A stretch of 64,000 nucleotides of DNA, taken from Lingula anatina (lineage: Eukaryota > Animalia > Brachiopoda). Position 1 is the stretch's first letter. Each line of letters starts with the position of its first letter. Shown here in pieces: positions 1 to 23,244 of the stretch. The notes under the pieces were generated by a model that ran no database searches, was not told the DNA's origin, and saw only the letters and a list, made by a program, of their open reading frames with translations. The stretch lies in the NCBI GenBank assembly GCA_051362555.1, contig CM120648.1:19030587-19094586 (forward strand), written 5' to 3'. A program made the position numbers and the translations under genes.

Positions 1-296
1 TGTGCTGTCACCTACTGATCATCTGTACAAGTATAAGGGCAGCAGAGAAGGCAGTGAACTGAGGTTTCCAAGTGGAGTGTGCACAGACAGCTATGGTCAC
101 ATCTTCATTGCTGACAGTGGTAACAACAGGATAGTGGCACTGAGTCCACAGGGACAGTTTATCAGATACATTGTCACTGAGGATGATGGGTTGAAGTTTC
201 CCATTGCAGTAGTCATCAACCCTGCTACTGGTCAGCTGGTGGTGGGAGAGGGGAGAGACAATGTTAAGACATTCCAGTACATTGAACTGAAACAAG
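1..296 (+). CDS. NHL-repeat beta-propeller exon (last blades, TRIM2/3-like NHL); 5' part outside window; probably spliced onto the Roc-COR-caspase exons
   Basis: ORF 2..304 has NHL consensus (LRFPSGVCTDSYGHIFIADSGNNRIV; LKFPIAVVIN). Strong donor CAAG|GTAAGT after 296, phase 1, matching the phase-1 acceptor at 4010. Confidence 0.85.
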
Positions 297-1113
297 GTAA
301 GTAACATGTATTAACTGTGGATAGATATGATTATTATGTAAATATTTTGAAAGTTAATTAGTCTTACAATGTTTTTATCCATAAATATGTTTGCCTTTAT
401 TTCAATAAAAAACTTTTTAAGCATATTTAAATTCAGTGAGCACACAGCTGTGCTTTAGTAAAAATGTATGTAGAGTGGAGACATTTTCTATAGTTAATAC
501 TTTACTGTTACTGACCAATTTCCATGAACCCATTATAGTGATTAGGATTTTGAATAATGATGAAGAACTCTTTTTAATGGAATTTATAGTATGCTTTATT
601 TGTATTTTTATTAAGTCAGAAGAAAAACATCTTACATTGTTTAATCCCTGAACTTCTTGTCCATTTGTCAGTGAAGAACAACTCAAATCTCACAACAGAA
701 CAGTCCAATTCTTCATATTCTTCATCTTGTAGCTGTTCATGAAAGCTTAGATATACCTAAATTCTCAAATGTACTTTGTCAAGTTTCTTGATGTCTTACC
801 ACTTCTAGATTCAAAGACATTTCATCACCAGTTTGTTGTTAACACACACAAATAAATTAAATGTTGAAGTACTTTGGATGATACCTTATTTTCCTGACTT
901 TGTGGATTGTTCTTTGCAAATAAAACTAGCAGACGACCATTTTTCATGAAATGGAACTACATTTCACAGGAAGTAGTGTATTCATACACAACAGTGACCT
1001 TGGGTTTGGAATACAAAAAAATAGTACATGCATTCATACTGTCACAGCATGTAAATTATAATGAAATATACAAAACTAAACACATTTTTATGTAACACAA
1101 AAAGTTAAATGCA

Positions 1114-1165
<52 letters not shown>

Positions 1166-2580
1166 ATTATTATACTGGATAAAAATGTTGATGAAATGGT
1201 TTTGACCACCTTTTTGGACTTTTTAAACTTCATGCTGATGGACCCACATATTTATGTCAAAGTCCCGGACCAAATCTAGTCCCATGCATAAAAAGCCCAG
1301 ACCCCATGTTTATTACGCCCTGGCTGGGCCCATTCTTAATTGTGTTTGTTTTGTTAACAGCATAGCGGGCAAGTTAATTGACCAAGTTAATTGGCCAAGC
1401 TGCCAGTTTGTTTGTATGGCATGTGCAGGGGATGTCTTATAGAATAATAAAATCAGACAGAATATGCTGTGATTCCTAAATAAAATAGATGGGGGGGGGG
1501 GGGGGGGTAGGAGACACCAAGGGGCTCATGATTATAAATACCATATAGCATTAATAATGATGGTTACATCCCAGATATTTTGCTCCTATGAACAGTGTCT
1601 TTGATATCAGTCTATCGGCAATCTCCAATCATAAATTGTTAATTTATCAGACACTTGTAACATTAACCACATTTAATTGTTCACCCTGATTGTGAAACAG
1701 CCGTTTGCTCCAGATGTTCTTAGTCTTCTCCAAATTAAAAAAAATATATATGGATGTTGATAAAATTTATTCTGAACAGTCTATAAGCCAGGCAGATTCA
1801 GTACAATGGCATATGTATTTGTAGGTTGATAAGTTATTAAATAAAGAAAAAAAAAACTTCATGTAATAATCATAATAGTGATACATAATACATGTATGAT
1901 GATACATTTCACCATGTAATGATGCAAACAACATCAAATGGAAACAAAAATAAACTTGTTATTAAACCAACTCAACAAATGTTTGTGCCAAGCAGATATT
2001 TAGCATTGTACAATGTACATGTATTTCAGGAACTGCTCAGAATTATGCTGATTGCCATTTCAATTCTAAATTAAACAAACATCAACGTTGCCTACAAAAC
2101 TGATACAACTGCACCAAATATCTCTTGCTATATGAAATACTTGTTGAAATGATGTTTTCAATAGAACTTATATTTTGTTTCATTTTTTTTATTTAATCAT
2201 GAGAAAAACATTCTAAAATGTTTAATCCCATTTCTTAGTATTATCATTATGCTTCACATATATATCAAGGCTGTTGCAATGTTTTTTTTTTTTTTTTAAC
2301 TAGTAAGCAAAATCTCTTACACTGCTACAGCACATCATCTACTAGCTACAATTTTTACATCTGATGGTTTTTAAATTAAAACTTACTGTCCCTGTGATTC
2401 ATCAGCTGAGATTTTTTTTTTTTTTGAATAAGTCATATTGTGTAATATTATTCTGTGTTGTTGTTAAAGGGATAACAACTGTTTGTATGATATCCATATT
2501 TACTAATAAATATATTGTAAACAACTCATAAAAATATAACAAATTATGTTTTACCACTAAAATGGCAGTCAACACATTTA

Positions 2581-3545
2581 TTAGTACCACCAGCCTGTAA
2601 GCTGTTGGTACTCCTAATTTTATTCCCGACCCGTCTCATACAGCTCCACTAGCTCCGCATTCTGGAGCTGGATACAAGTCACCATTCTCCTCCTAGACCC
2701 CAAGGACCCATGTCCCCATCTCTTGGATTTAGGTCACATATTATCTCAATTTGAACCCTTTTTTTTGGCTCAGTTGGTGCATTATCCTGGGCATGACGTT
2801 CGTTGAAACGCACCCTTGTCAAAATTTTTGAAAATTCGATGCCAAATATCTCTGAAACCAAAGGAATTATCGGAAAAATTACTATAGAATTTTGACCGAA
2901 AGTCATATTTGTAGATTCCAGCTATGCCCTTGGATTTGACAGTTGACCTTTATCTCAAGGTCAAACAGGCCAAAATCTCCAAAAAATGGGGATTTAAAAA
3001 AATATGTTTGTGCCAATTTTTAGAAACTACACCGACCTAAGTGGGGGGATTACAATTTGGGACTTCTTCGGGAGTTTGGGGTCAATAGGTGCATTTTCAC
3101 AGGAGAGGCAGCCGTTAGATGCCAAAGCTGAAAACTCTCTATTAAACCAGAACCCTAAATACAAGAGACCTCTTGTTTTTTGCATTTCGTAGAGCTTGTC
3201 AAGCTCAATTGATACGTACTGGGGTTGGAATCCATTTTTTTGTTTGTTTTTGATATGTAGGTTAGGAGTTGTGCTATATAAAAAAGTACATTTCAATATT
3301 CAGTAGTGAAGCAAAATGTGAAATACTCAAAAACTGGCAGAGATACACCCATGGTTACTATTGACCTTGAATAAGAAGTCACATACTGGCAGCCAAACTG
3401 TGACCTTGAAATTGACCTTTGACCTACTTTTTCATCTTAAACTAAGTCTTGCAAATTTTTTGCCTCTTTTATCTGCAAAAATGGCAGAGATACACTTATA
3501 GTTACTATTGACCTTGAATAGGAAGTCATATACTGGCAATCTTAC
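2581..3545 (+). mobile_element. Truncated, diverged Helentron-type (HINE/DINE-like) element
   Basis: 5' hairpin GTACCACCAGC..GCTGTTGGTAC, body similar to the 6521 and 13035 copies, about two repeat units, no 3' end. Confidence 0.65.
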
Positions 3546-3854
3546 TCTACGCTGCTTTGTAATCTGGAACATAGTCCATCTTACACGTCAGACTTTGTGT
3601 GCAAATCGACTTTGTGATTTATGAAAAATGTCTGTATACTTCACTTTGTTCTTCAGCAGTGATTCAGTATCCAGATTACACACCCTTTTTATCTATCTGT
3701 CTATTTTACTCGAAGTTTGTTTTACCCTGATATAAATAAAGCACCATAGTATTTTTGGGAATTTCTCAATTCAATTCAAAAATTTAATTAAGCTGCGATT
3801 TATCAACTTTTGTCATCGTGAAAATGTGAGATTTTACATAACACACTGTTACTC

Positions 3855-3965
3855 TCAAGCACATATGCAGGCATCCACCTCTCTAGATTTTCTCTCGCTT
3901 CCTCTCTGCTATCGATCACTTCACAATAAATATAACGTCTGCAAACATCATCGTTCACCTTATCC
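3855..3965 (-). mobile_element. Short RTE-type LINE RT fragment
   Basis: Minus strand reads MMFAD... and, frameshifted, DSREEARENLERW. Confidence 0.45.
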
Positions 3966-4009
3966 ATGAGTCCTTTTGTCAATCTGAAGCATAACATATG
4001 TATTACCAG

Positions 4010-4240
4010 GTGAGTTTAATGAACGGCTTCGCCGATTGTGTGAAAGTGGTAAGATTCCAGTATACCGACAGCGAGTAGCTATTGTTGGACCTTACGGTGT
4101 GGGGAAGACTTATCTCGCCAAGCGCCTCATCCATGAGGAATATATCAAAGAAGAAGATGCAAATACAACTGGCGTGAATATATACCGCCATAGGTGTGTT
4201 GTCCATAAAGCTGGCCGATCCTGTTGGATCAGAGGAAAAG
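4010..4240 (+). CDS. Roc GTPase exon with P-loop (G1) and G2
   Basis: ttaccag|GT GAG..., translation EFNERLRRLCESGKIPVYRQRVAIVGPYGVGKTYLAKRL...NTTGVNI; donor AAAG|GTAAGC, phase 1-1. Confidence 0.88.
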
Positions 4241-4689
4241 GTAAGCAGAATATAGGAAAACGTTAGACACATATGGAATATGTTTATAAAGAATACAAAG
4301 AACAGAAGATAAGACATTTTCAATTTTACCACATAATTCACAATAAGGAATTATACATACGTGTACGTGTGGGTGTCGAAATGTGTCCTTCCCTATCTTA
4401 GTATGGTAGACGAGGGGCTGAGTGAAATAGTACCTAAATAAGTAGTGCCTTTGTATTGTTATCAATCAATTGACATACATGACACTTTACAATCTACTCC
4501 TACAGCCCATTGATTATTTTTTAACTGGGTACAAACACTATAATTTCATTCTTTGTAAAAACACCATGCTTTATTCTACTCAATATTGAATTGAATTTTT
4601 CAACGGTGTAGCCTGATACGTACACTCAGAAAGGGTACATTTAGATACAACGCTTGATCTACCTGTATGATCCTTCCAACTATTCTCAG

Positions 4690-4845
4690 ATGATCCAAAA
4701 GACCAGTTTGCACAAAACATGGCAATTGGAGTACAGAATTCAGATACATTTTGTGAGCCGGACTTAACAGTATTGGACCAAACGCCACTAGAGGAATCCC
4801 CACCAGATTCAGAAGAGAATATTAATAACATGCTGACAAATAGAG
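4690..4845 (+). CDS. Roc insert exon (acidic, low complexity, 52 codons)
   Basis: ttctcag| ... AGAG|gtatt; 156 nt, open in phase 1-1 (DDPKDQFAQNMAIGVQ...EESPPDSEENINNMLTNR). Confidence 0.7.
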
Positions 4846-5059
4846 GTATTGTACATGATTGTCTCGAATAGTTCATCTTGGTGCAATTTAAACAGATATT
4901 TGTAGTTATTCTTCTTTTTTGCCAAGAGATTCCACCTTCTATGTGTTTTTCTTTGGCCATTCCACATATATGTGCCTTGAAAACGTTTTTGTTTTCTTCA
5001 AGGTTGATTCTTTTTCTGTTAGAATGTTGTTTGATATTATTCTTCTCTTTATTCTACAG

Positions 5060-5110
5060 CCGCTTCCCCTGATGACAGTGAATCACCTGCCTCTCCTGAC
5101 AAAGCAGCAG
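5060..5110 (+). CDS. 51-nt micro-exon of the Roc insert
   Basis: Polypyrimidine tract + tacag|, donor CAG|GTAAGT; AASPDDSESPASPDKAA, phase 1-1. Confidence 0.65.
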
Positions 5111-6520: not shown

Positions 6521-8396
6521 ATTATTGTACCACCAGCATTAGTGCTGGCGGTACACATGGTTTCGGTCCCGTCTGGATCGTTCCGCCGGCTCCGCCGGAC
6601 GGCTACCGTTACCGCTTCTCCTCCTAGACGGTAAGGGCCCCCGTACCCATCTCATGGATTTAGGTCACCTATAATCTCAACTCGTTCCACGTAAAATTTG
6701 GGCTTTGTCGGTATTGGGGTCTGGGTGTGGCACTCATTACAATGCACCCTTGTCTAAAAATGGCAAAATTAAATGCTAATTATCTACCCTATGGAAGGAG
6801 TTATGGGAAAAATTTCTATAGACGGCTTTCCAAAAGTCATATGTGTAGATTTCAAATATACCCTTGGATTTGACCTTTGACCTTTACTTCAAGGTCAAAT
6901 GGGCCAAAATTTTCAAAAAAATGAAATTTTTTACGAAAAATTTTTTTTTTGCCCTGTTATTAAGACACTACACAGACTTAACCAATAATATTATTGGAAA
7001 GTGTTACCCTTCAGGTCATCTTTCATCTCCATGAATTTGTGGTCAATCGGTGCATTTTCACAGGAGTAGCGGCCATAAGATACCGAAACTGAAAACTGTC
7101 TCTAATTCGGGAACCGTTAATGCTAGAGACCCATTCTTTTTTGCATTTTGTAGAGCATGTAAAGCCCAACACTGAATGTGGTCTCGGGTTTTTTTGTATT
7201 CCATACGGTTTTCGAGTAACGCTGTATCAAAAAGTACATATTGGTGGTAAAAGCAAAATGTGCAGTACGGTAATGGATAATAAATTTTGGACTCTGGAAA
7301 AATAAAACATAAGGCTTGGCAAAGCAGACAACTTGTGTTCAAAAATGACATTATTTCATCAAATTTGAACTTATGAAACTTCAGAGCACCTCCTATTTCA
7401 AGAATTTTCACCAAAATGACATTTTCTTTATTTTAAATAATTTTTTCTGTACGAAATTTAAGGCACATTATGGTAACTCCAAAATTATAACATTTAGTCC
7501 CTTATATCCAAAACTGGCAGAGATAGGTCCATAGTTACTATTGAAGTTGAATAGGAAGTCATATACTGGCAATCTTACTGTGACCTTGAAATTGACCTTT
7601 GACCTACTTTTCACCATGAACTGAACTTTGCAAATTTTGCTTCCCTTTCATCTCCAAAACTGGCAGAGATAGGTCCATAGTTACTATTGAACTTGAATAG
7701 GAAGTCATATACTGGCAATCTAAATGTGATCTTAAAATTGACCTTTGACCTACTTTTCACCATGAACTGAATTTTGCAAATTTTGCTTTCCTTTTATCTC
7801 CAAAACTGGCAGAGATAGGTCCGTAGTTACTATTGAACTTGAATAGAAAGTCATATACTGGCAATCTTAATGTGACCTTGAAATTGACCTTTGACCTACT
7901 TTTCACCATGAATTGAACTTTGCAAATTTTGTTTCCCTTTTATCACCAAAACTGGCAGAGATAGGTCCATAGTTACTATTGAACTTGAATAGGAAGTCAT
8001 ATACTGGCAATATAAATGTGACATTAAAATTGACCTTTGACTTACTTTTCACCATAAACTGAACTTTGCAAATTTTGCTTTCCTTTTATCTCCAAAACTG
8101 GCTGAGATAGGTCCGTAGTTACTATTGAACTTGAATAGGAAGTCATATACTGGCAATTTACTGTGACCTTGAAATTGACCCTTGACCTATCTTACGAAGA
8201 ACTTAAATTTGATTGTACCATATATATTTTTTGCAATAGTTTAATAATTCTTGTTGATTGCATTTTTACAGCTTGTCAAGCACAAAACTGGTGGCTGTGT
8301 CCCTTTTTTTGTGTATGTGGGGGTCTATACGAATGCGCTTGCTCCAGCTGGTGGTACAATATTCGGAGGCGGTATCGCCTCTCTGATCCTCTAGTT
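6521..8396 (+). mobile_element. Helentron-type non-autonomous element with about five 146-bp units
   Basis: 5' ATTGTACCACCAGC, 3' sub-terminal inverse GCTGGTGGTACAAT, terminal hairpin GAGGCGGTATCGCCTC and CTAGTT end; units at 7516, 7662, 7808, 7954, 8100. Confidence 0.8.
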
Positions 8397-9080: not shown

Positions 9081-9468
9081 GGTCTACATTTGACAGATTT
9101 GCTGTCTTGTTTTATCTGGGTACGAACACGACAATTTAATTTTCTGTAAAATAAGTCTTCTTTATATGACTGAGGATTATTTTTCTTTTTGCCAAGGGAT
9201 TCCACCTTCTATGTGTTTTTTGTTGGCCATTATACCTTATGTGCCTTGAAGACTGGGCACTTGATACCAATTATACTTGATCTTATTAGACGCATTTTCG
9301 ATGTAATTTATTTATTTTTATACAATATTTATAGACCAATATCCCAAAGTTATATGTTAAAATTTTGTAAAGAAATTCCTTTATCTTAGCCACGTTTTTG
9401 TTTACTTTAAGATTGAGTCATTTTCTGCTGGAATGGTGTTTGATATTATTCTTCTCTTTATTCTACAG

Positions 9469-9501
9469 CCGCTCCACCTGCCTCTCCTGACAGAGCAGCA
9501 G
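9469..9501 (+). CDS. 33-nt micro-exon, duplicate of 5060..5110
   Basis: Near-identical flanking intron sequence and splice sites; AAPPASPDRAA, phase 1-1. Confidence 0.6.
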
Positions 9502-10333
9502 GTAAGTAGTGCATATGTAGTAAAACAAGATTCCGTCTTTTGCTCATAATCTGCGAGAGTTGTTCTTAGCTTGTCGATTAAGTATGTGAGTTCCTGCATT
9601 CTTATTTTCATCAAACTGTATTAATAATGTTATATTAAAATTGACTATACCTTACAATTTTAATTGATTTTAATGAATGTTAAAACATTCAGTGTTTATC
9701 ACCCAGTTATGTTTTGAGCTTACTCACTTGTATTCAACAGAGAGGATACATTTTTAAGAAAAAAATGTTTTTTTTTTGCAAATTGCCGATAAACCTTCAG
9801 AAACAGATGAAAGCTTCTAATATATTTGATAACTGTTTCACAAAGTTAATTGACACTAAATACATTCAAATTTTGTCAATAATTACGATACTTTTTTATG
9901 CTAAAAAGTTTTATTTTAACCACACTGTTTATTGTACAGTCCTTTTCAAAGGTGAAAGTGGATCTCATACCTCTGGGGAAGAAAACATGAGTAGTATAAG
10001 AATGTTGACGATATGTCGATGTATGAACAGTCCCTGACAAATGAAATAAATTAGATTGAAAGCATGTCTATAAAGATTAAGGTCTAGTCTCTCACAACCC
10101 CCCCCCCCCCTTGAAGAAGGCACATCAGCTGAAAACTCAATTGGGCGCTTGATACCAATTATACTTATTACATGCATTTTCAATCTAATTTATTTATTTT
10201 TATACAATATTTATACAATATACTGCAGGATTAATACGATGATTTGGATAAATATGCACGCATTGCAATACATAACAATATGCATTATGCTAAAATCATT
10301 TAGTTTGGACATAGCTTATTGTATTCATCGCAG

Positions 10334-10463
10334 TGGCAGAAAGGGACCATCTAGATGATATTGACAAGGAGCTATTGGAAAAAATTCAGAAAATTGCCCG
10401 AGGGGAAGATGTGGAGCCAGAGAAACAGGTCACAATTTGGGATTTTGCAGGACAGGATGTCTA
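10334..10463 (+). CDS. Roc G3 exon, 5' half (split by transposon)
   Basis: cgcag| then VAERDHLDDIDKELLEK...KQVTIWDFAGQDVY, the Roc WDFAGQ motif. Confidence 0.88.
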
Positions 10464-12361
10464 CGGTAATGTGCCAAGCATTTCGACCGGCCCAGTCAAT
10501 CCGACCACAAAAATTATTTTATAAAATTAATTTTTCTGGACTCAAACAATTAGTCCATACGTCAAAATCATGGGACAGAATTTTTTTCTTGTTCCGATTG
10601 TTCGACCACATCGTCGACAAGACTCGGTAAATTTTCAAGCCAGTGAAATAGATGCTGCATGCCTCGGCCCTTTGTCAATTGTTGTCCTTTCTATAGCTCT
10701 CGTCAATGAGGAAGAAACAATTAATTGAAGATCTAATCTGGAAGCATGACGTACCTGTCTTTTCCTTTGTCCCCGATGACAATAATAGTGCTTATAGACA
10801 TACAAATTTTGCTATTAAGCAGACTTGCCCTCGCTGACTGATTCATCACGCCCGTAACTGGGGCGAGGGGGGGGGGGGGTTAAAAAAAGGTCTATTCTGG
10901 ATGAAACCAAATATCGACAGTGGGTAAAATACGTCGTAAACACCTTCATATAGACCATATATCGCGTTTGCTAGCAATAAAAAGTTTGGGAAGAAAAAGC
11001 AATTTATTTTCAAGTTCGATTGAAATATATATGCAGATGGGGAAACGTTCTTGAAGTCAACACAGCAAGATCTTACATTTACTACAATCGACCGAAAGAT
11101 CAGCGGGATCGACCGCCCAGACTTCTTGGCGCCAAATACCACGCGCTGTCAAAATCTGACGAACACGTGTCGCTGTTCACCTACATGGATAACTGATTTG
11201 TCAACAATAAAAATGACGTCTTCCTTAACTCCATGGGAGCTTCATAGAGAGTTCCACTGGGTATTTACGTTACCTGTGAGTCACTTTCTATTTCCCTAGA
11301 TGCATGAAATGTTGATAATATTTAGCGTAATCCACGACGAACTCCATTCCTGTGACCCCTCCCCCAAAATGGGACCGTCTTCATTAACATGTGGTTTGCG
11401 CTATGCTGGAACAGACCAGATAAAACCAGTCTCTCATTTCTGCATGTGCTCAATTCTCACGTCAAATTATAAATGCACCTGTTTTGTGAAAATTATGGCA
11501 AGTAAATGCTTTTTTTACGTTCGGGTTGTATCAGTGGGGTTTTCAATATGCACCGTGGTTTGTGCACAGCGAGAGCATATAAGTAAGAAAATCGGAAGAA
11601 TGCCAGCAAAATACTGTATGTCTATCGGCACAGGTACGCTCCGTATTTTGCCTTTACTCAATATGTTTTTATATGACATGCTTTTTAAATAAGATACTTA
11701 ATAGTAATTTGAAGTTACACTGATTTCCGTTTGAGTACCAGTTGGTATGCTTTGATACGGGTGATTGAATTTTCTTCGGAAGTACGTACGTCTACGCCTC
11801 GACGCTGAGCAAGCCTTGCGGGTTGAAAACAACTGATCTCAGACTGGTAAAAAATTTCAGTTCGGTTGATTTCAGTTGTCATATTAAAATTCAAATAGGG
11901 CGTACGTAGATCACATAACTAGTTAAAGTCCACTTAAGCTACCGGTTTCAAATATAAGTGACCGGCCTTTGTTTACAACACCCGTCTCCGGGGAAATACT
12001 CGTCCAACTTGTGAAGCGCATCATGAAAGTGATCGTAGGTGAGGGAAATGTATAATTAAAAATTATAATTGTCGTCTTTTTTAATGTTAAGTAATGTTAG
12101 CACATATTGTACACAGCAAAATAAGTTTTCAGGAGGATAAAACATGCCTGAAACACATGTTAGGCGAAAATTGCGGCTTATCTTGCGTAACACTTCCGGT
12201 AAAATGCAATACTTCCGGAAAGATGGACGTTTTGGCAGATGCCCCTAACAATCCGACGATATCAAAGGTTTCCATTTGCTGTATTTTAATCAATTCGACC
12301 AAACTGACATTTCCATGAAATTAATTAATTAATCTTGGTCGAATTGTTTGGCATATTACCG
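10464..12361. mobile_element. Non-autonomous TIR DNA transposon with TA target duplication (Tc1/mariner-type target), inserted in a coding exon
   Basis: Left end CGGTAATGTGCCAAGCATTTCGACC, right end GGTCGAATTGTTTGGCATATTACCG (imperfect 25-bp TIR). TA at 10462-63 and 12362-63. No transposase ORF seen. Confidence 0.85.
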
Positions 12362-12363
12362 TA

Positions 12364-12479
12364 CTACACCACGCACCAAACATTCCTCTCAGAGCGGATC
12401 ATCTACTTGTTGGTATTCCGACTTGACCAGGACCTCGATGATAAAATCCGTGTATACAGGGGAGAGAAGACGCTGAAAG
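12364..12479 (+). CDS. Roc G3 exon, 3' half
   Basis: Removing the insertion and one TA restores DVYYTTHQTFLSERIIYLLVF; donor AAAG|GTATTG, phase 1. Confidence 0.88.
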
Positions 12480-12743: not shown

Positions 12744-12774
<31 letters not shown>

Positions 12775-13034: not shown

Positions 13035-16000
13035 TTATTGTACCACCAGCATAGGCGCTGGTGGTACACATGGTTTTAGTCCCGACCCGTATGTTCCGCC
13101 GGTTCCGCCGGCTCCTGCGGCTCCGCTGCCAAGTCACCGTTACCGCTTCTCCTCCTAGACGGTAAGGGCCTCCATACCCATCTCTTGGATTTAGGTCACC
13201 TATAATCTCAACATGTCCACGTAAAATTTGGGCTTTGTCGGTATTGGGGTCTAGGTGTGGCACTTATTGCAATGCACCCTTGTCCAAAAATGGCAAAATT
13301 AAATGCTTATTATCTCCCCTATGGAAGGAATTATGGGAAAAATTTCTACAGACAGCTTTCCAAAAGTCATATGTGTAGATTTCAAATATGCCCTTGGATT
13401 TGACCTTTAGAGTTTCGAGTTACGCTGTATCCAAAAGTACATATTGGTGGTGAAAGCAAAATGTGCAGTACGGTAATGGATAATAAATTTTGAACTCCGG
13501 AAAAATAAAACATAAGGCTTGGCAAAGCAGACAACTTGTGGTCAAAAATGATATTCTTTCATCAAATTTGAACATCTGGAACTTCAGAGCACCTCCCATT
13601 TCAAGAATTTTGACCAAAATGATGTTTTCTTTATTTAAATTAATCTTTTCTGTAGGAAATTTATGGCACATTATGGTAAATCCAAAATTATAACATTTAG
13701 TCCCTTATATCTCCAAAACTGGCAGAGATAGGTCCATAGTTTCTATTAAACTTGAATAGGAAGTCATATACTGGCAATCTACATGTGACCTTAAAATTGA
13801 CCTTTGACCTACTTTTCACCATGAACTGAACATTGCAAATTTTGCTTCCCTTTTATCTCCAAAACTGGCAGAGATAGGTCCATAGTTTCTATTGAACTTG
13901 AATAGGAAGTCATATACTGGCAATCTAAGAGTGACCTTAAAATTGACCTTTGACCTACTTTTCACCATGAACTGAATTTTGCATATTTTGCTTCCCCTTT
14001 ATCTCCAAAACTGGCAGAGATAGGTCCATAGTCTCTATTGAACTTGAATAGGAAGTCATATACTGGCAATCTACATGTGACCTTCAAATTGACCTTTGAC
14101 CTACTTTTCACCATGAACTGAACTTTGCAAATTTTGCTTCCCTTTTATCTCCAAAACTGGCAGAGATAGGTCCATAGTTTCTATTGAACTTGAATAGGAA
14201 GTCATATACTGGCAATCTAAGAGTGACCTTAAAATTGACCTTTGACCTACTTTTCACCATGAACTGAACTTTGCAAATTTTGCTTCCCTTTTATCTCCAA
14301 AGTTACGCTGTATAAAAAAGTACATATTGGTGGTGAAAGCAAAATGTGCAGTACAGTAATGGATAATAAATTTTGAACTCCGGAAAAATAAAACATAAGG
14401 CTTGGCAAAGCAGACAACTTGTGGTCAAAAATGACATTATTTCATCAAATTTGAACCTCTGGAACTTCAGAGCATCTCCCATTTCAAGAATTTTGACCAA
14501 AATGACCTTTTCTTTATTTTAATTAATTTTTTCTGTAGGAAATTTATGGCACATTATGGTAACTCCAAAATTATACCATTTAGTCCCTTATATCTCCAAA
14601 ACTGGCAGAGATAGGTCCATAGTCTCTATTGAACTTGAATAGGAAGTCATATACTGGCAATCTACATGTGACCTTCAAATTGACCTTTGACCTACTTTTC
14701 ACCATGAACTGAACTTTGCAAATTTTGATTCCCTTTTATCTCCAAAACTGGCAGAGATAGGTCCATAGTTACTATTGAAGTTGAATAGGAAGTCATATAC
14801 TGGCAATCTAAATGTGACCTTAAAATTGACCTTTGACCTACTTTTCACCATGAACTGAACTTTGCAAATTTTGCTTACCTTTTATCTCCAAAACTGGCAG
14901 AGATAGGTCTATAGTCTCTATTGAACTTGAATAGGAAGTCATATACTGGCAATCTACATGTGACCTTAAAATTGACCTTTGACCTACTTTTCACCATGAA
15001 CTAAACTTTGCAAATTTTGCTTCCCTTTTATCTCCAAAACTGGCAGAGATAGGTCCATAGTCTCTATTGAACTTGAATAGGAAGTCATATACTGGCAATC
15101 TACATGTGACCTTAAAATTGACCTTAGACCTACTTTTCACCATGAACTAAACTTTGCAAATTTTGCTTTCCTTTTATCTCCAAAACTGGCAGAGATAGGT
15201 CCCTAGTTTCTATTGAACTTGAATAGGAAGTCATATACTGGCAATCTACATGTGACCTTAAAATTGACCTTTGACCTACTTTTCATCATGAACTGAACTT
15301 TGCAAATTTTGCTTCCCTTTTATCTCCAAAACCGGCAGAGATAGGTCCATAGTTTCTATTGAACTTGAATAGGAAGTCATATACTGGCAATCTACATGTG
15401 ACCTTCAAATTGACCTTTGACCTACTTTTCACCATGAACTGAACTTTGCAAATTTTGATTCCCTTTTATCTCCAAAACTGGCAGAGATAGGTCCATAGTT
15501 ACTATTGAAGTTGAATAGGAAGTCATATACTGGCAATCTAAATGTGACCTTAAAATTGACCTTTGACCTACTTTTCACCATGAACTGAACTTTGCAAATT
15601 TTGCTTCCCTTTTATCTCCAAAGTTACACTGTATAAAAAAGTACATATTGGTGGTGAAAGCAAAATGTGCAGTACAGTAATGAATAATAAATTTTGAACT
15701 CCGGAAAAATAAAACATAAGGCTTGGCAAAGCAGACAACTTGTGGTCAAAAATGACATTATTTCATCAAATTTGAACCTCTGGAACTTCAGAGCATCTCC
15801 CATTTCAAGAATTTTGACCAAAATGACCTTTTCTTTATTTTAATTAATTTTTTCTGTAGGAAATTTATGGCACATTATGGTAACTCCAAAATTATACCAT
15901 TTAGTCCCTTATATCTCCAAAACTGGCAGAGATAGGTCCATAGTCTCTATTGAACTTGAATAGGAAGTCATATACTGGCAATCTAAATGTGACCTTAAAA

Positions 16001-17252
16001 TTGACCTTTGACCTACTTTTCACCATGAACTAAACTTTGCAAATTTTGCTTCCCTTTTATCTCCAAAACTGGCAGAGATAGGTCCATAGTCTCTATTGAA
16101 CTTGAATAGGAAGTCATATACTGGCAATCTACATGTGACCTTAAAATTGACCTTTGACCTACTTTTCACCATGAACTAAACTTTGCAAATTTTGCTTTCC
16201 TTTTATCTCCAAAACTGGCAGAGATAGGTCCCTAGTTTCTATTGAACTTGAATAGGAAGTCATATACTGGCAATCTACATGTGACCTTAAAATTGACCTT
16301 TGACCTACTTTTCATCATGAACTGAACTTTGCAAATTTTGCTTCCCTTTTATCTCCAAAACTGGCAGAGATAGGTCCATAGTTTCTATTGAACTTGAATA
16401 GGAAGTCATATACTGGCAATCTACATGTGACCTTCAAATTGACCTTTGACCTACTTTTCACCATGAACTGAACTTTGCAAATTTTGCTTCCCTTTTATCT
16501 CCAAAACTGGCAGAGATAGGTCCATAGTTACTATTGAAGTTGAATAGGAAGTCATATACTGGCAATCTAAATGTGACCTTAATATTGACCTTTGACCTAC
16601 TTTTCACCATGAACTGAATTTTGCAAATTTTGCTTCCCTTTTATCTCCAAAACTGGCAGAGATAGGTCCATAGTCTCTATTGAAGTTGAATAGGAAGTCA
16701 TATACTGGCAATCTAAGAGTGACCTTAAAATTGACCTTTGACATACTTTTCACCATGAACTGAATTTTGCATATTTTGCTTCCCCTTTATCTCCAAAACT
16801 GGCAGAGATAGGTCCATAGTTACTATTGAACGTGAAAGGAAGTCATATACTGGCAATCTAAGTGTGACCTTTAAATTGACCTTTGACCTACTTATTATCA
16901 TGAACTGAACTCTGCTAATTTCTTTCTCTTTTAACTCCAAATCTGGCAGAGATAGGCGAATAGTTACTATTGAAGCTGAATAGGAAGTCATATACTGGCA
17001 ATTTACTGTGACCTTGGAATTGACCTTTGACCTACCTTACGATGAACTTAACTTTGATTGTACCATTTTTAGTTATATATATATTTTTTGCATATTTTGA
17101 AAATTCTTGTTGATTGCATTTTTACAGCTTGTCAAGCACAAGACTGGTGGCTGTGTTCCTTATTTTGTGTATGTGGGGGTCTATACGAATGCGCTTGCTC
17201 CAGCTGGTGGTACAATATTCAGAGGCGATATCGCCTCTCTGATCCTCTAGTT
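13035..17252 (+). mobile_element. Helentron-type element with expanded 146-bp tandem array (about 19 units, higher-order structure)
   Basis: Same termini as the 6521 copy; perfect palindrome AGAGGCGATATCGCCTCT at 17221; 146-bp period (13721, 13867, 14013, 14159...); a ~300-bp block recurs at about 13419, 14302 and 15623. Confidence 0.85.
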
Positions 17253-17583
17253 CTATGTATAATTTGTATCCCTTCAACCATATCATGATTCCTGACGAGT
17301 GACTTAATTATTTAGAAACTTTTCACTATGTGACTATTTGTGGATGGCATGATTTAATGTTGGGGGAAAAGGGTGTCCCTTGCCCACTGTACTCCATCCT
17401 AATTTTATAGGTTCATTGCAGCACACCCATTTTTCAACTTGAACGAAGTGGACTATATCATATACACATATATACATGTACATACACACACCCTGGTAGA
17501 TGTTTTCTTTCGCTCTGACACTTAAGCATTATTATATAGTAGTGAAAAACTACAAAAGAATCTTAACATCTTTTCATTCATAG

Positions 17584-18754
17584 GGCGAGGTTGAAAAGAT
17601 TTTTGATAAACTCAAGAAGTGTCTCGATGACAAGCAGGTACTCAAGGACCACGTCTATCGATATTTTGCCATAAGCAACTTGGCCGAAGACGATGAGGAG
17701 TTTGCTGAAATAAAAAGAGCGATCGAAGATTTGTGCGGTTATAGCAGCGACAGTGAGGCTACCGTTCAACATCTTCCAGTGAGTTGGATTAAATTGGAAA
17801 TGAATTTGGCAAAGAAGAGTGAAGAAACACCCATCATAACTATTGAAAAATTGATGGAAATGGCGCAAAGGGTAGGACTCCCTGATGGAGAATTACAAGA
17901 AAAATTCATTCCTTACCATCACCGTCAAGGCGACATCCTACACTTTAAAATTGATGGACTGGAAAGTGTCGTCATAATAGATCCACTTTGGTTAGCAGTT
18001 GTGTTTTCTGCCATCATGACCCCGGCCAGCATTCACTCTGGATGCAGTCGCGGCCATGTCCTGAAAGATGAGCTTGAAAGAGGAGTCCTAAAAGAGGAGG
18101 TATTTGATGAGTATCTAAAAGAATTCAAGATGGCCGAAAAAAAGACTGAAATCATTCGACTTATGCTGCATTTCGACTTGATGTTAGAAATATCCCAATC
18201 AGTTGAAAACCCTCTGCCTGGACATGGAAAAAGAAGATTCCTCGTACCCAGTATGCTGGTATCAAATAACAGTGCGAATGAGACAAATCCGCAGAAATAT
18301 TTGCTTATCGCATTCCCTCATATTCTGTTTCCTACTGGGTTATTTCATCGTCTGACCATCCGTCTTCTAAGGAAGTATAAAGCTCAGCAATATAAAAATA
18401 ACATCCCAGTTGTTGGGTTTGACAGCGCCTCCTTCCGCCTGGCTGATAAACAGTCGGTGCTGCATCTCGCCATTGAAAATAAGGCCATGAAGTTGTTTAT
18501 AACTAACGCCACTGGACTCCCTCCAAAGACTCACGTGTACTCAGAAGCAAGAAAAACAGTTGAAAATGAGTTGACAGTCCTTCGGGATACATACTGCCCC
18601 AGGATGCATTTTGGCTACAGCATCAGGTTAAAAAATGACGGACCCAATATTCCAATAAATGCGCATGATGTCCAAACAGCCGATTCCATATGTGTGTATG
18701 TAGAGAACTCTGAAGTGTCGGTAGATTTAAGGCCATATCGCGTTTGGTTTTCTG
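17584..18754 (+). CDS. Roc G5 plus COR domain exon
   Basis: tcatag|GGC; YFAISN (G5), then COR motifs LPVSWIKLE, YHHRQGDILHF, VIIDPLWL, LMLHFDL, FLVPSML, FPTGLFHRL; donor TCTG|GTAAGC. Confidence 0.9.
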
Positions 18755-19418
18755 GTAAGCAGTTTGAAATATCACGTAGTGTTGTTGTGAATAGACATTA
18801 CGCCCTATGCTATTTTAACATAGAACATGCATTCCGTGTTAATTGGTTCACAGATCTTAACATTTTAAAAGATCCCTGATTACACATCATGTAATATCTG
18901 AAACCAGATACCATAAGAAAATTTAGGTTTGATTAGTTTTAATTTTCAAAATTATTTATCTGGAAAAAAGTATTAAGGATATTTCTGTTTTGTACATATA
19001 TTTTTGAAAATATTGATTTTTTACACAAACACTAATGACATACAATGTTAGTTATTTCGTATGAATACTCAATTGTATATGCAATAGACTAAAAAATGCT
19101 CAATTAGAAATTAATGGGAAAATTTATATTAATCTACCCTTCTTAAATGAACTAGGTACTTGTTTGTAACATTTTTATTAGAAACAAAAGGCAAGATATC
19201 GTATTCAGATTTTACTCAAACATGTTATGAATTAGCAACCTGTGATAACAAGTCATTAGAAACATGTCAGTGAAAAATAAAACCAAAATTAACAATCATT
19301 TCGGAATGGATTTTGAAAGGAAAAGTACGGCGTATGATAGGACATAAAGTATTTTGATGGGGCCCTAGAGGCCAAGTACCAATATATAATATATATTAGG
19401 CCAATCTTACCATTTTAG

Positions 19419-19468
19419 CAGCCCCAGAGAATCAAGACCGTCGTGCAGCCAAGTGTCCTGAAAACGAG
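19419..19468 (+). CDS. COR-caspase linker exon with GC donor
   Basis: cattttag|CA...GAG|GCAAGT; 50 nt converts phase 1 to phase 0 as required; AAPENQDRRAAKCPENE. Confidence 0.7.
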
Positions 19469-19511
19469 GCAAGTTATGAGCTTTTAAATATGTTTGTGTC
19501 TAAGTACTGCG

Positions 19512-19599
19512 CAGCAAACACAGAACGTTATTATAACGTTACCATATCATATGTCCAAAAACATTTTGGTAACATTATAGGAACGTTCTGTGTTTGCTG
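19512..19599. mobile_element. Tiny foldback element (CACTA/EnSpm-like termini)
   Basis: CAGCAAACACAGAACGTT ... AACGTTCTGTGTTTGCTG, perfect 18-bp inverted repeat. Confidence 0.55.
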
Positions 19600-19790
19600 A
19601 CCATTATCCTCACTTGCACAAGTTTTAGTAAGACCATGAAATTAAATGTACTTGTATATACACAATCATAAGAAAAATTGGATACACTTAGGCATAAATG
19701 AGCACTTTTCACTCTGTTACACTTGCTATATGACCTCTGATATTTCTAATGATAAATTTCACATAAAGAGGGTGTATGTGTGCGTTTCAG

Positions 19791-19961
19791 TACAAGAACG
19801 ATTCCGAACCAAGAGGTCGTGCAGTCATTATCAACAACAAGACATTTTCCGTGGACTGGCTTCCAGAACGTGATGGTACCGAGGTAGATGTTGTTGCCTT
19901 GAGGAAACTATTCCGTTACCTCCATTATGAGACAGACGTTATCAGTAACCTGACTGCAAAT
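19791..19961 (+). CDS. Caspase p20 exon 1
   Basis: YKNDSEPRGRAVIINNKTF...PERDGTEVDVVALRKLFRYLHY...NLTAN; canonical AG/GT. Confidence 0.92.
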
Positions 19962-20282
19962 GTGAGTTCATTAATAAGATCATGGTGTGTTTGTAATAAA
20001 ACGAACATCGTAAAAGCCAAATGGCTTTTAGGTTTCAAAGACTAACATACTTTTTGGTGATATCTAAATATATTTATCAGTGACACAAAGATGATACAAT
20101 TGATACTTGAACCTTTTGGATCAAAACAGGTGTTGTCAAACAAACTTTTCGGTCACATTTTATTATGTTTATCTATTTCACTGCAATATATTTTTCTACT
20201 AAAATGAAGCTTTTCACTCGTTTCTGTTCATTGCATGTATTTGTATTTATATGAGAGATGTACGGTACACTGAATAGTTATA

Positions 20283-20657
20283 CAACATTGGTCAAAAAGG
20301 TTGTCCCACCCCTATTTCCATGTACTTTAAAAACCAACCCCATAAAAACCTGGGCCAAATCCCCCATCTTGTTTAAGAAGAATCGGACAAGTCTTTTCAA
20401 TTTTATAGACATTTCTTTACATCTGTAGAAATCACAGTGAAACAGTCGAATCGAGGGGTACCTCTTATAAATTTAACTAAATGGTATAAAATGTGTATAT
20501 TTTCACCACTATTTTGTTTTTTTTTTAACCATGAATCATCTTAGACACGGTATCCGTAATAAAAAGCACTATTTCTAACAGTTCACAGCTGTGAGGTGAT
20601 CATTTGTAAATAAAAGTACATGGAAATGGGGGTGGGACAACCTTTTGACCAATGTTG
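20283..20657. mobile_element. Tc1/mariner-type MITE
   Basis: TIR CAACATTGGTCAAAAAGGTTGTCCCACCCC.ATTTCCATGTACTTT with its inverse; TA on both sides. Confidence 0.85.
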
Positions 20658-20884
20658 TATACAAACAGACATGGCGTACAATCTACAAATATACCACCAT
20701 ATGTCCGTCCTCGGTGGCTACTGCCTTTCACATTCTCTGTTAGCGTCAAGTATGAATTGATGCTTTACGCTGTCGTTGATAACCCAATTCCGTACGTACC
20801 ACGTCTCTGCAGTCATTGCATGCTATTTCGTTTGAAGTACACTATGTTTTTATGTCACTTCTTCTTTTATTTTAATGTGTAAAG

Positions 20885-21104
20885 GAAATGAAGGAAGAAA
20901 TAGAACAAGAAAGTCAAAGAGACGATCACAAGATCTACGATTCTTTCATCTTGTTTCTACTGAGCCATGGTACCGAGGGTGCTGTTTATGGAACGGATGG
21001 CTATCCTTTACCCTTCAAATATATCAAAGCCATTTTGAATAACAGGAACTGTCTTGGCCTGTCGGGCAAACCGAAAATGATATTTATTCAGGCTTGCCAG
21101 GGAA
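20885..21104 (+). CDS. Caspase p20 exon 2 (catalytic His and Cys)
   Basis: DSFILFLLSHG...LSGKPKMIFIQACQG; donor A|GTAAGT. Confidence 0.95.
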
Positions 21105-21367
21105 GTAAGTTATGGAATGTATTACACAAGCTTGAATACCTGCGATGAAAATAACATGCAAAATTATTAAACAAATGTATTGAGATATTAAACTGTATTA
21201 ACAGTTTGTCTCCTTTAAATTATATTCAGCCACACGAAATGAATGACACTTAGTATTATGTAATTGTTTAATTAGTTAATACTGATATCAATTCTAACTT
21301 ATATGTAAACATGTAATCCACATAAGGGTGTATGGGGTATTTCATTTTTTTTTCCATATTCGCCCAG

Positions 21368-21538
21368 AGATATTGGACAGTGGGACACTCCTGGACGGAC
21401 AAACAGTTCAACAACCACAGCAAGCACCACCTGCAGCAAACCTTGGCGATGAGGTACCCGATGCGCCACACGAGATTCCAAAGCCATCCAATGATCCGAC
21501 AATGTCCGATTTTCTCGAGGTCCATGCGACTTCACCAG
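21368..21538 (+). CDS. Caspase inter-subunit linker and start of p10
   Basis: ccag|; KILDSGTLLDG...DEVPDA...PTMSDFLEVHATSP; phase 1-1. Confidence 0.85.
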
Positions 21539-21869
21539 GTACTTTAACCGTGTTTCTTTGTATGCCATTTTACTTAGGCCTTACAAATGTGTTTTTCATC
21601 AGAAAAAAAAATCAAAATGATAAGGTGCACGTGGTGATGCTGGGATTATGGCATTTTGCCTCAGGTAGAAGATGGTGTGCATTTTGTGGTCTTTTGACAT
21701 ATTGTGGAGAACTGTATTGTACGTGTATACTTTTAAATGCGCACTACATTACTGCACCAGTAAATACTGAAAATGGTGCATGTATTTTTATACAGTATCA
21801 AATAAAATATATGTGCCAAATTTAATTAAAATTTACGTACATTTTTGCCATAATGCTTTTAAAAATGCG

Positions 21870-22278
21870 TTCACGATCACTACGAAAAACGAAAGTGTGT
21901 CGAGACGTTACCTAATTGTATTTGGGAAGCTGTCAGACGATTTCTTTCGATAAAAAAGACTTTGTAGCTTATGCAAATGTTGAGAAAAAAACATGCCGAT
22001 TATGGAAAATTCAATTATCAAAATTTAAACTACGTAATTCGACAGATTTTAATTTAATTTAATTTAATTTAAAAATCGCTATCGTGTATTTCTGACATTG
22101 AATTCTCAGTGTGCACAAAGTATAGGCATCGAAGGCATTCATGAATGTCGACACGTTTGATTCTTTGAATCAGACGCTTCATGTTACTTGATAGCGCAGA
22201 GGCATGCCAGGGAAAACAGAGGAAGAAAAACAAGTTCTGCTTTTTCTTGATTGAAGGCTTCGATTTGTTGAAGGGCAA
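21870..22278 (-). mobile_element. Diverged copy of the 8479-9080 repeat family
   Basis: Reverse complement shares CCTTCAA.AAAT and TCAAGTAA...GAAGCGTCTGAT.CAAAG.ATCAAACG; left boundary approximate. Confidence 0.4.
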
Positions 22279-22748
22279 TTCTGTATAGCCTGGTTTTCAA
22301 AGATGTGGCAGGCATATCAGCAAAACAAAATGCATCGCCAAGGACCCGAATGCCATGGCAAAATGTTTTAAGTTTACTTTGTTATTTTGATACAAATAAG
22401 CTTCCGGTTGACATAGATTTGACTGGTCTCCAACTTTCCATGCTGCACTGTGCCTGACCGAAAAAAACCCTTAAAATGAGTAGTGATTCAGTGTTCCAAT
22501 GATGCCTGCGATGGCTAGAAACGTGACCCGTATTATTGGCCTTTTGGAGATCATTTCAGGTCGGTTCACTGTAACACTATCGGCAAATATACTTTACTAA
22601 TAGTTCCTCGATCTACGCGATTTATGAAATTTGCTTTTCCGCACTCTCCGTGAGACTAAGTACTGTTATATTAACAAAATAAAAATAAACAGTACCGTTG
22701 CATCTACGAGTAAATAATACGTTAAGGCTTCAGTATTTTCTGTTTCAG

Positions 22749-22858
22749 ATTACGTATCTTGGCGACACCCGGGAAAGGGAACATGGTTTGTTCAATCCAT
22801 TGTCGATACATTTTATCGTGAAGCACACAAATATGACGTTTTACAAATGTTGGTGAAT
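22749..22858 (+). CDS. Caspase p10 exon
   Basis: tttcag|; DYVSWRHPGKGTWFVQSIVDTF...DVLQMLVN|gtaag. Not in the ORF track. Confidence 0.92.
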
Positions 22859-23094
22859 GTAAGTACTGAAATAACATGAACTACATTATTTTGCATTGAA
22901 AGTGTGTTAAATTCATTAGAACACCAATCAAATATAAAACATAGCTACCAGAAGAAGTGACATGTCGTAAGAGGTGACTTATGTAAATACAGTCCAACAT
23001 GCACAGACTTTTTAAGAACCAGCGAAATGCTCTTCTGTATATTTTGACAGTTTAATCAGAACTGTTCACTTCATGTAATATTTTATTTCACCAG

Positions 23095-23244
23095 GTGAAT
23101 CACGCGATCTCTCAAAAGCAAACAATAGAGGGCAACAAACAGGCACCAGAGATAGTTACCAGCTTACGAAAGAAAGTTTTCTTCAACATAACTCCAGGTA
23201 AGCAAAAAGAGTCGCATCTTCCCGAGGTGTATTCGGCCGAATAA
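23095..23244 (+). CDS. Caspase p10 terminal exon (stop at 23244 on read-through; alternative donor after 23197)
   Basis: VNHAISQ...KQAPEIVTSLRKKVFF is the caspase C-terminal motif. Confidence 0.85.
   Translation: MNHAISQKQTIEGNKQAPEIVTSLRKKVFFNITPGKQKESHLPEVYSAE

What the first reader, a model, noticed from the sequence alone, without database searches (positions are those of the whole stretch)
1..23244. One gene appears to encode NHL propeller - Roc GTPase - COR - caspase: a single-chain apoptosome-like receptor
Seen: 14 exons join with canonical splice sites (one GC donor) and fully consistent phases into an ORF of more than 1050 aa, once the exonic transposon is removed. All Roc motifs (GPYGVGKT, TTGV, WDFAGQ, GTHKD, FAISN), the COR motifs and a complete caspase (RDGT, SHG, QACQG, SWR) are present. 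Established: Roc-COR modules dimerise through COR under nucleotide control, initiator caspases are activated by dimerisation, and NHL propellers bind RNA or protein ligands. Well-known animal Roco proteins (LRRK1/2, DAPK1, MFHAS1) carry kinases, LRRs or death domains rather than a caspase. Inference: this is a sensor-switch-effector receptor analogous to Apaf-1/caspase-9 or NLRs but built on a GTPase, with the protease fused in cis. I do not know a described family with this architecture but cannot confirm novelty.
Basis: partly seen in the sequence, partly recalled or inferred. Interest (0 to 1): 0.92.

Follow-up and report, generated by a model that had tools for sequence, protein, structure and literature searches.

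The report
Brachiopod sensor-GTPase-caspase receptor, transposon-broken copy
A gene of the brachiopod Lingula is predicted to join a fast-changing propeller domain, a GTP switch of the Parkinson-gene (LRRK2) type and a cell-death protease in one chain that likely works as a self-activating immune alarm, but a jumping gene sits inside one of its exons and probably disables this copy.

Summary
Observation confirmed. Fourteen exons give a stop-free 1059-aa NHL-Roc-COR-caspase frame once a 1898-bp TA-flanked transposon is taken out of the Roc exon. The DNA matches Lingula anatina. Three RefSeq models carry the same NHL exon spliced onto Roc; the COR-caspase link rests on one 50-nt GC-donor exon with no RNA or homolog support. 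The transposon probably disables this copy. The family is the real finding. Roc-COR-caspase chains occur in Lingula, Owenia, amphioxus and a sea anemone. Close Lingula paralogues swap caspase for HEPN by recombination inside COR, and the NHL varies almost only on its ligand-binding face (31/42 against 27/221 columns). Likely mechanism: ligand binding drives COR dimerisation and caspase activation, in a lineage reported to lack Apaf-1. The logic is known: bacterial LRR-Roc-COR-caspase is described, a bacterial Roc-COR-CHAT cuts gasdermin, and one Owenia ROC-caspase is in print. I found no description of the NHL form or of the animal family. The scan noted similar Roco layouts before on other DNA (Trichoplax, a protist, a cyanobacterium), but not this gene.

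The parts
2..296 (+). 3' end of the NHL six-bladed propeller exon (blades 5-6); phase-1 donor; a TAA follows at 302-304 if unspliced
   Evidence: Pfam NHL 1e-9; 86-87% identical to P0006, P0008, P0030; donor GTAAGT score 8.7
4010..4240 (+). Roc exon with P-loop (G1) and G2 threonine
   Evidence: Pfam Roc 4.4e-6; 100% identical to P0006
4690..4845 (+). Acidic insert within Roc, exon 3
   Evidence: 100% identical to P0006 387-438; junctions 21/21
5060..5110 (+). Ser/Pro-rich mini-exon of the Roc insert
   Evidence: matches P0006, P0007; duplicated at 9392-9618 (self-match)
9469..9501 (+). Duplicated, shortened Ser/Pro mini-exon
   Evidence: phase 1-1, strong splice sites; P0008 also has two copies
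10334..10463 (+). 5' half of the Roc G3 exon (WDFAGQ)
   Evidence: 98% identical to P0008
10464..12361 (.). Non-autonomous DNA transposon, 1898 bp, TA target duplication, about 25-bp imperfect terminal inverted repeats, inserted just after the G3 motif
   Evidence: longest stop-free frame 130 aa with no Pfam match; absent from all paralogue models. 'Tc1/mariner-like' is my recalled label from the TA duplication
12362..12479 (+). 3' half of the Roc G3 exon (switch II helix)
   Evidence: empty site 21/21 with P0008, P0010
12866..12990 (+). Roc exon with G4 (GTHKD)
   Evidence: 93% identical to P0001, P0008
17584..18754 (+). Large exon: end of Roc (G5), N-COR and C-COR; holds a recombination breakpoint near the start of C-COR
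   Evidence: Pfam COR-A 2.5e-21; 82% to P0001, 77% to P0002; max-chi 35.4, permutation p<=0.0005
19419..19468 (+). 50-nt COR-caspase linker exon with GC donor; the least supported link
   Evidence: of 66 stop-free phase 1-to-0 candidates, the five best all use this donor (7.9; next donor -0.6); no homolog support
19791..19961 (+). Caspase large subunit, exon 1 (RDGT)
   Evidence: Pfam Peptidase_C14 2.1e-9
20885..21104 (+). Caspase large subunit, exon 2 (catalytic SHG and QACQG)
   Evidence: Pfam 1.5e-18; 84% to P0009
21368..21538 (+). Caspase inter-subunit linker with candidate Asp cleavage sites, and start of the small subunit
   Evidence: 79% to P0009; alignment to P0016, P0045; the cleavage sites are inferred
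22749..22858 (+). Caspase small subunit exon (SWR)
   Evidence: Pfam 1.2e-5
23095..23244 (+). Last exon with stop; an AATAAA overlaps the stop at 23243
   Evidence: collinear with P0016 to the end of the domain
60499..60846 (+). Start of a second copy of the same NHL exon, cut off by an LTR retroelement: the locus is a tandem cluster
   Evidence: 94% to P0006 1-116; Gag-like ORF 61702-63630 and aspartyl protease 63603-63998

Best explanation
This is a Lingula gene predicted to encode one NHL-Roc-COR-caspase chain that likely acts as an innate-immune cell-death receptor, and a transposon inside its Roc exon probably disables this copy. Shown: the exons, motifs, transposon, family members, mosaic COR and the variation on the NHL top face. 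Inferred steps: (1) the NHL top face binds a variable foreign or damage ligand, protein or RNA; (2) binding or clustering shifts Roc from the GTP-bound monomer to the GDP or nucleotide-free dimer held by C-COR, as in the Chlorobium Roco protein; (3) the two caspase domains are forced together 26 residues behind COR, dimerise, cut their own linker and cut downstream death substrates. The family diversifies by phase-1 exon shuffling of the sensor and by recombination that moves C-COR together with the effector (caspase or HEPN nuclease; both act as dimers, recalled).
For: Stop-free 1059-aa model. NHL-Roc junction 20/21 identical in P0006 and P0008. The same NHL exon is also spliced to a distant Roc-COR (P0030; NHL 90%, Roc-COR 31%) and to a CARD-like tail (P0167), whereas in 15 of 15 TRIM-type Lingula relatives the protein ends with the NHL. 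8 of the best 150 hits carry Roc-COR-caspase on one chain: Lingula x3, Owenia, Branchiostoma, Exaiptasia, 2 unnamed. NHL top-face columns vary 31/42 against 27/221 elsewhere and 3/44 in bottom loops. All four combinations of two Roc/N-COR types and two C-COR+effector types exist among window, P0001, P0002 and P0003. The caspase keeps His, Cys and the Asp-pocket Arg, Gln, Arg. A stand-in paralogue folds like LRRK1/2 and CtRoco. Lingula is reported to lack Apaf-1 and caspase-2 (PMC11463336).
Against: No RNA reads were seen. No database protein holds all four domains (0 of 150; 0 of 46; 0 of 5). The linker exon has no homolog (12/21 and 8/21). The RefSeq models are predictions and some are visibly wrong (P0010 fuses two neighbours; P0006 and P0008 are truncated). 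The NHL test uses 6 sequences, 2 of them partial, that may include alleles; positions were defined after I had seen the alignment; no dN/dS could be computed. The neighbouring related caspase P0009 has lost its catalytic Cys and the second NHL copy is broken, so the cluster decays quickly. No GTP control of any Roc-fused protease appeared in the passages read.
Confidence: 0.6

Rival explanations
1. Decaying shuffle product: recent exon shuffling in a transposon-rich tandem cluster made this four-domain chimera, which never had, or has lost, a function.
For: Transposon in a coding exon; second NHL copy broken by an LTR element; the nearest caspase P0009 lacks the catalytic Cys; no four-domain protein in the databases.
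Against: Apart from the one insertion there is no stop or frameshift in 3180 nt, and all catalytic motifs are kept. The window's caspase has a short end branch (0.09 against 0.38 for P0009). The Roc-COR-caspase layout is shared by Lingula and Owenia orthologues (40% over 1351 columns).
Confidence: 0.17
2. Two or three separate genes: the NHL exon ends at its own TAA (302-304), or COR reads through to the stop at 18879 and the caspase is transcribed apart.
For: In-frame stops follow both donors; AATAAA motifs lie in both introns; the linker exon needs a GC donor and has no homolog; RefSeq annotates the related caspase P0009 as a separate short gene.
Against: Strong donor at 296 and the same junction in P0006, P0008 and P0030. 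The P-loop and first caspase exons begin with acceptors and no own start was seen. Only 1036 bp lie between COR and caspase, and they hold one clear in-phase exon. P0002 (78% in Roc-COR) has COR fused to a caspase.
Confidence: 0.1
3. A real single chain, but not a ligand-gated death switch: Roc acts as a GTP-level sensor or scaffold, NHL localises the protein on RNA, and the caspase is activated by other means or has non-lethal substrates.
For: Roco proteins may be GTP sensors and their cycle is disputed (PMC6337361); TRIM-NHL propellers bind host RNA (PMC4015489); Krasovec et al. read the Owenia ROC prodomain as a link to kinases.
Against: A fixed host ligand should conserve the top face, yet it is the most variable part, with mixed charge and many aromatic residues. 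The paralogues swap in HEPN, and relatives carry death, TIR, DED or OTU domains.
Confidence: 0.13

Closest known systems
Prokaryotic AP-GTPase (Roc)-COR counter-invader proteins, Kaur et al. 2021 eLife (PMC8195603, section 15 read whole)
   Same: Variable N-terminal repeat sensor, Roc-COR, and an exchangeable C-terminal effector that can be a caspase; several paralogues per genome with different effectors.
   Different: Bacterial, with an LRR sensor, and predicted only. Here it is an animal gene with a TRIM-derived NHL propeller and a true Asp-type metazoan caspase, diversified through exons.
Runella Roc-COR-CHAT protease of bacterial gasdermin systems, Johnson et al. (bioRxiv 10.1101/2021.06.07.447441, passages)
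   Same: Roc-COR fused to a caspase-clan protease that was purified and cuts a death effector.
   Different: CHAT protease, cut after Leu, substrate encoded next door; no GTP dependence appeared in the passages read; no gasdermin was seen in this window.
Owenia fusiformis caspase-Y with ROC prodomain, Krasovec et al. 2024 (PMC11463336, passages and supplement search)
   Same: Animal ROC plus caspase in the lophotrochozoan clade; the window's caspase groups with P0016, P0017 and CARD and PARP caspases (support 91).
   Different: Reported as one species-specific oddity (CAH1787638.1), without COR, sensor or receptor model, and with the caveat of possible gene-prediction error. The 3 Lingula accessions I searched for are absent from its supplement.
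Apaf-1/caspase-9 apoptosome and NLR inflammasomes (recalled)
   Same: Repeat sensor, nucleotide switch and proximity activation of a caspase.
   Different: They use a STAND ATPase that forms a wheel and recruits the caspase in trans through CARD; here a small-GTPase-type Roc with a COR dimer module carries the caspase in cis.
Expanded ROCO repertoires of brown algae (PMC11378527), Trichoplax (PMC4104024), Aplysia (PMC9334734); Lingula caspase-RLR grafts (PMC8998645)
   Same: Roco proteins proposed as diversified immune receptors; domain grafting of caspases onto sensors in Lingula.
   Different: LRR, TPR, TIR, CARD or death partners; no NHL sensor or caspase effector on Roc-COR in the passages read.

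Membership tests
Roco family | Roc GTPase with G1-G5 motifs directly followed by COR | tested here: met
   Motifs in order; Pfam Roc and COR-A
Roco family | Roc-COR fold | tested here: met
   Stand-in paralogue P0005 (64% in Roc-COR; model pLDDT 72.7) hits LRRK1, CtRoco 3DPU and LRRK2 at E 1e-19 to 1e-17; the window's own chain was not folded
Roco family | GTP hydrolysis and nucleotide-dependent monomer-dimer cycle | not testable with these tools
   Known for CtRoco (PMC6337361); needs biochemistry
Caspases (C14A) | His-Cys dyad and Asp-binding Arg/Gln/Arg pocket | tested here: met
   RDGT, SHG, QACQG, SWR present; collinear with P0016 and P0045; pocket roles recalled
Caspase-Y clade (Krasovec et al.) | Groups with lophotrochozoan CARD caspase-Y, PARP-caspase and ROC-caspase | tested here: inconclusive
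   11-row group with P0016, P0017, P0027, P0045, P0049, P0087 at SH-aLRT 91 in a quick tree of 43 rows (30 of 73 background caspases used); no named caspase-Y reference included
TRIM-NHL | RING, B-box and coiled coil before a terminal NHL | tested here: not met
   P0006, P0008, P0030, P0167 start at the same Met without RING or B-box and continue after the NHL; the NHL derives from the Lingula TRIM2/3-like expansion (44-72% identity). The window's own 5' end lies outside the window
NLR / Apaf-1 (STAND) | NACHT or NB-ARC ATPase | tested here: not met
   Only P-loop-length matches far below cut-off (NACHT E 0.013, NB-ARC E 0.03); Roc is the best hit
AP-GTPase-COR counter-invader systems (Kaur 2021) | Rapidly varying N-terminal repeat sensor | tested here: met
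   NHL 85-90% between copies while the next exon is 99% identical; top-face enrichment p 1.5e-15; NHL instead of LRR
AP-GTPase-COR counter-invader systems (Kaur 2021) | Exchangeable C-terminal effector among paralogues | tested here: met
   Caspase (window, P0002), HEPN (P0001, P0003), low-complexity tail with weak RHIM match (P0004), N-terminal HEPN (P0005); breakpoints
AP-GTPase-COR counter-invader systems (Kaur 2021) | Activation by an invader | not testable with these tools
   No expression or infection data seen

The most novel reading that the evidence does not exclude
Marine invertebrates have an unrecognised class of single-chain death receptors, a GTPase-switched counterpart of NLRs and the apoptosome, in which Roc-COR dimerisation fires a fused caspase or HEPN nuclease. 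In Lingula a hypervariable NHL exon serves as a portable antigen-binding cassette, and a Bcl-2-like-Roc-COR-caspase shared with Owenia could be the missing initiator in lineages that lost Apaf-1.
Probability: 0.35. Interest if true: 0.85.

Novelty: new variant of a known kind. Interest (0 to 1): 0.62.

Why it matters
Roco proteins such as LRRK2 have a disputed nucleotide and dimer cycle. A natural Roc-COR-caspase fusion would be a built-in reporter of which state is 'on', because the caspase needs a dimer. Molluscs, annelids and brachiopods are reported to lack Apaf-1, and how their initiator caspases fire is open; fused Roc-COR-caspases give a testable route. The hypervariable NHL face suggests that invertebrates use this propeller as a diversified immune sensor.

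Tried and rejected
No genome is held for the window, so paralogues could not be counted, no dN/dS was computed and the 5' end could not be read. No RNA reads were obtained, so every junction remains a prediction. A two-copy fold of the COR exon gave no verdict (score 0.00, mark 0.32, alignment not used); it is not evidence either way. My first exon-3 start (4630) was rejected for 4690, which the RefSeq models use. A candidate mini-exon at 9940 was dropped because no model uses it. A direct COR-to-caspase splice needs a weak acceptor at 19771 and was judged less likely. The caspase tree is the quick one (careful search unfinished), and the Roc-COR tree is FastTree on 33 rows picked by motif, which left out P0023, P0029 and P0061. 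They suggest several independent fusions, but long branches meet, so I do not claim a number. The ESM Atlas gave only sub-0.9 leads (bacterial COR-CHAT, mollusc Roc-COR-death). Term searches in the bivalve caspase paper (PMC7836458) and an amphioxus paper (PMC2575513) found 0 mentions of Roc. Gerdol et al. 2018 on Lingula immunity is not held and could already list these genes; the supplements of Kaur 2021 and Johnson 2021 were not read. Scan look-ups by sequence, by genome and with NHL words returned nothing.


Full report
Source and gene model. The COR exon's 5 hits among 2865 candidates are all Lingula anatina RefSeq models at 60-82% identity, and the P-loop exon is 100% identical to one of them, so the window is Lingula anatina or a very close relative. 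No genome is held. Fourteen exons between 2 and 23244 join with AG acceptors, 12 GT donors and one GC donor into 1059 codons plus stop, with no internal stop, if the element at 10464-12361 and one TA are left out. Pfam finds NHL, Roc, COR-A and Peptidase_C14 on the expected exons.

How well each link is supported. Comparing 21-residue windows across each junction with 12 database models: NHL/P-loop 20/21 in P0006 and P0008; the Roc junctions 21, 21, 15, 19, 21 and 20 of 21; the empty transposon site 21/21. P0030 joins the same NHL exon to a Roc-COR only 31% identical to the window's, and P0167 joins it to a tail with a weak CARD match. In all 15 TRIM-type Lingula NHL proteins the protein ends with the propeller, whereas the 4 proteins of this subfamily run on. 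So the NHL-Roc link, which looked weakest, is well supported by predicted models. The caspase exons are collinear with P0016 and other caspases. The weakest link is COR-caspase. It needs the 50-nt exon 19419-19468, which no model shares (12/21 and 8/21). In its favour, among 66 stop-free phase 1-to-0 candidates in that interval the five best all use the donor at 19469 (score 7.9; next donor -0.6), only 1036 bp separate COR from the caspase, and the paralogue P0002 (78% in Roc-COR) carries a caspase in the same place. No RNA reads were seen.

The transposon. It is 1898 bp, flanked by TA on both sides, with ends matching at 22 of 25 bases and no transposase frame. It sits three codons after the G3 motif. 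Retained, it gives a stop at aa 319. Of 7 in-frame ways to splice it out, the best (donor 10466, score 1.7, within the range of real donors of this gene; acceptor 12392) deletes 9 residues that include positions conserved in 90% or more of 41 family members; skipping the exon is also in frame but removes G3. I put about 75% on this copy being non-functional. The insertion looks recent, since nothing else is broken.

The family. A search of 1.84 billion representatives with P0002 returned 9305 hits, of which the best 150 were seen. Local domain calls on the 159 proteins held, checked by Pfam on 32 of them, give 8 of the 150 with Roc-COR-caspase in that order: Lingula P0002, P0014, P0016; Owenia P0017; Branchiostoma P0029; Exaiptasia P0035; unnamed P0023, P0061 (names, which covered 18 proteins). 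Three more have caspase-like parts in front of Roc (P0043, P0108, P0117). One has NHL-Roc-COR (P0030); none has all four domains. Other relatives end in death, DED, TIR or OTU domains and start with ankyrin, SH2, EH, Macro, Neuralized or Med25 domains. P0017 begins with a Bcl-2 domain (5e-23) and P0016 with a weak one (0.0027); the two align at 40% over 1351 columns.

Module exchange. The window's Roc-COR is 86% identical to P0001, which ends in HEPN, and 78% to P0002, whose caspase is only 44% identical to the window's. Informative sites switch from P0001-like (57 to 8) to P0002-like (8 to 22) near the start of C-COR (max-chi 35.4; 0 of 2000 permutations reached it); P0003 shows the mirror switch. 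All four combinations of two Roc/N-COR types with two C-COR+effector types exist, which requires at least one recombination inside the COR exon that moved C-COR with the effector. C-COR is the dimerising half in CtRoco (PMC6337361, passages); caspases and HEPN nucleases both work as dimers (recalled). The NHL/Roc and COR/linker introns are both phase 1.

The sensor. Between P0006 and P0008 the NHL exon is 88% identical while the next exon is 99%. With the top face defined as the loops joining strands d-a and b-c (PMC4015489, passages), 31 of 42 top-face columns vary among 6 sequences (2 partial) against 27 of 221 others and 3 of 44 bottom-loop columns; for three or more states the counts are 22/42, 4/221 and 0/44. 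I set the positions by repeat motif after seeing the alignment, and some sequences may be alleles, so the p-values (1e-15 and lower) overstate certainty; the pattern itself is plain. The variable residues have mixed charge and many aromatics, which fits a diversified binding surface better than a fixed RNA site. The propeller's nearest solved relatives are TRIM2, TRIM3 and Brat. A second copy of this NHL exon starts at 60499 and is cut by an LTR element.

Mechanism. Shown: domains, motifs, mosaic structure, top-face variation, and a Roc-COR fold for a stand-in paralogue. Inferred: ligand binding at the NHL top face or clustering moves Roc out of the GTP-bound monomer into the COR dimer; the caspases, 26 residues behind COR, dimerise, cut their linker (candidate Asp sites in exon 21368-21538, one resembling the caspase-9 site, recalled) and trigger death. 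The direction of the switch is borrowed from CtRoco and may differ. Krasovec et al. report that Lingula lacks Apaf-1 and caspase-2 (PMC11463336, passages), which would make fused activators useful, but that link is my inference.

Comparison with what is known. Kaur et al. 2021 describe bacterial LRR-AP-GTPase-COR proteins with at least 24 effectors including caspase (PMC8195603, section 15 read whole; a related passage in PMC7159879). Johnson et al. purified a Runella Roc-COR-CHAT protease that cuts gasdermin (passages; bioRxiv supplements not seen). Krasovec et al. note one Owenia caspase with a ROC prodomain; their supplement lists P0017 with a blank prodomain and none of the 3 Lingula accessions searched. 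Roco proteins as candidate immune receptors are proposed for brown algae, Trichoplax and Aplysia (passages), and caspase grafts on Lingula RLRs are reported (passages). Nine literature searches (listings only, beyond the papers named) showed no description of an NHL-Roc-COR protein or of an animal Roc-COR-caspase family; the library lacks most subscription journals, including Gerdol et al. 2018. Earlier scan notes record similar Roco layouts on other DNA and none on this sequence.

Verdict. A real, correctly read gene; a member of the Roco family and not of the NLR or TRIM-NHL families; a new variant of the known sensor-Roc-COR-effector kind. The animal family, its hypervariable NHL cassette and its effector exchange appear undescribed and are directly testable: interest 0.62.

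Noticed in passing
P0016 (Lingula XP_013407220) and P0017 (Owenia CAH1786849): Orthologous Bcl-2(-like)-Roc-COR-caspase proteins, 40% identical over 1351 columns: a Bcl-2 fold, a GTPase switch and an intact caspase in one chain in two phyla reported to lack Apaf-1. Possibly more interesting than the window gene.
   Followed up: partly
P0167 (Lingula LOC106159462): The same hypervariable NHL exon spliced to a Gln-rich tail with a weak CARD match (E 0.0085) and no Roc: the exon acts as a portable sensor cassette.
   Followed up: partly
P0001, P0003, P0005 (Lingula): Roc-COR with a DZIP3-type HEPN domain behind or in front, 64-86% identical to the window's Roc-COR.
   Followed up: partly
P0009/P0010 (Lingula, next to P0001): A caspase 79-84% identical to the window's, with the catalytic Cys replaced, lies just upstream of a Roc-COR-HEPN gene; an older model fuses the two.
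   Followed up: partly
P0027, P0087, P0043, P0117: Related caspases fused to PARP, to a RIG-I-like helicase, and in front of Roc-COR-death or Roc-COR-OTU; PARP and RLR caspase fusions in Lingula are in print.
   Followed up: no
window 7502-8189 and 13701-17056 (also about 3320-3545): A 146-bp tandem repeat (4.7 and 22.9 copies) inside a repeated mobile-looking element fills three introns of the gene.
   Followed up: no
window 29919-30924, 34045-35430, 43690-50838: DDE_Tnp_4 transposase fragments, a broken LINE reverse transcriptase, and a multi-exon DUF6729 element between the two NHL copies.
   Followed up: no
window 60849-64000: LTR retroelement inserted in the second NHL exon; its 642-aa Gag-like frame begins with a helix-hairpin-helix motif and has PNMA-like and zinc-knuckle matches.
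   Followed up: no
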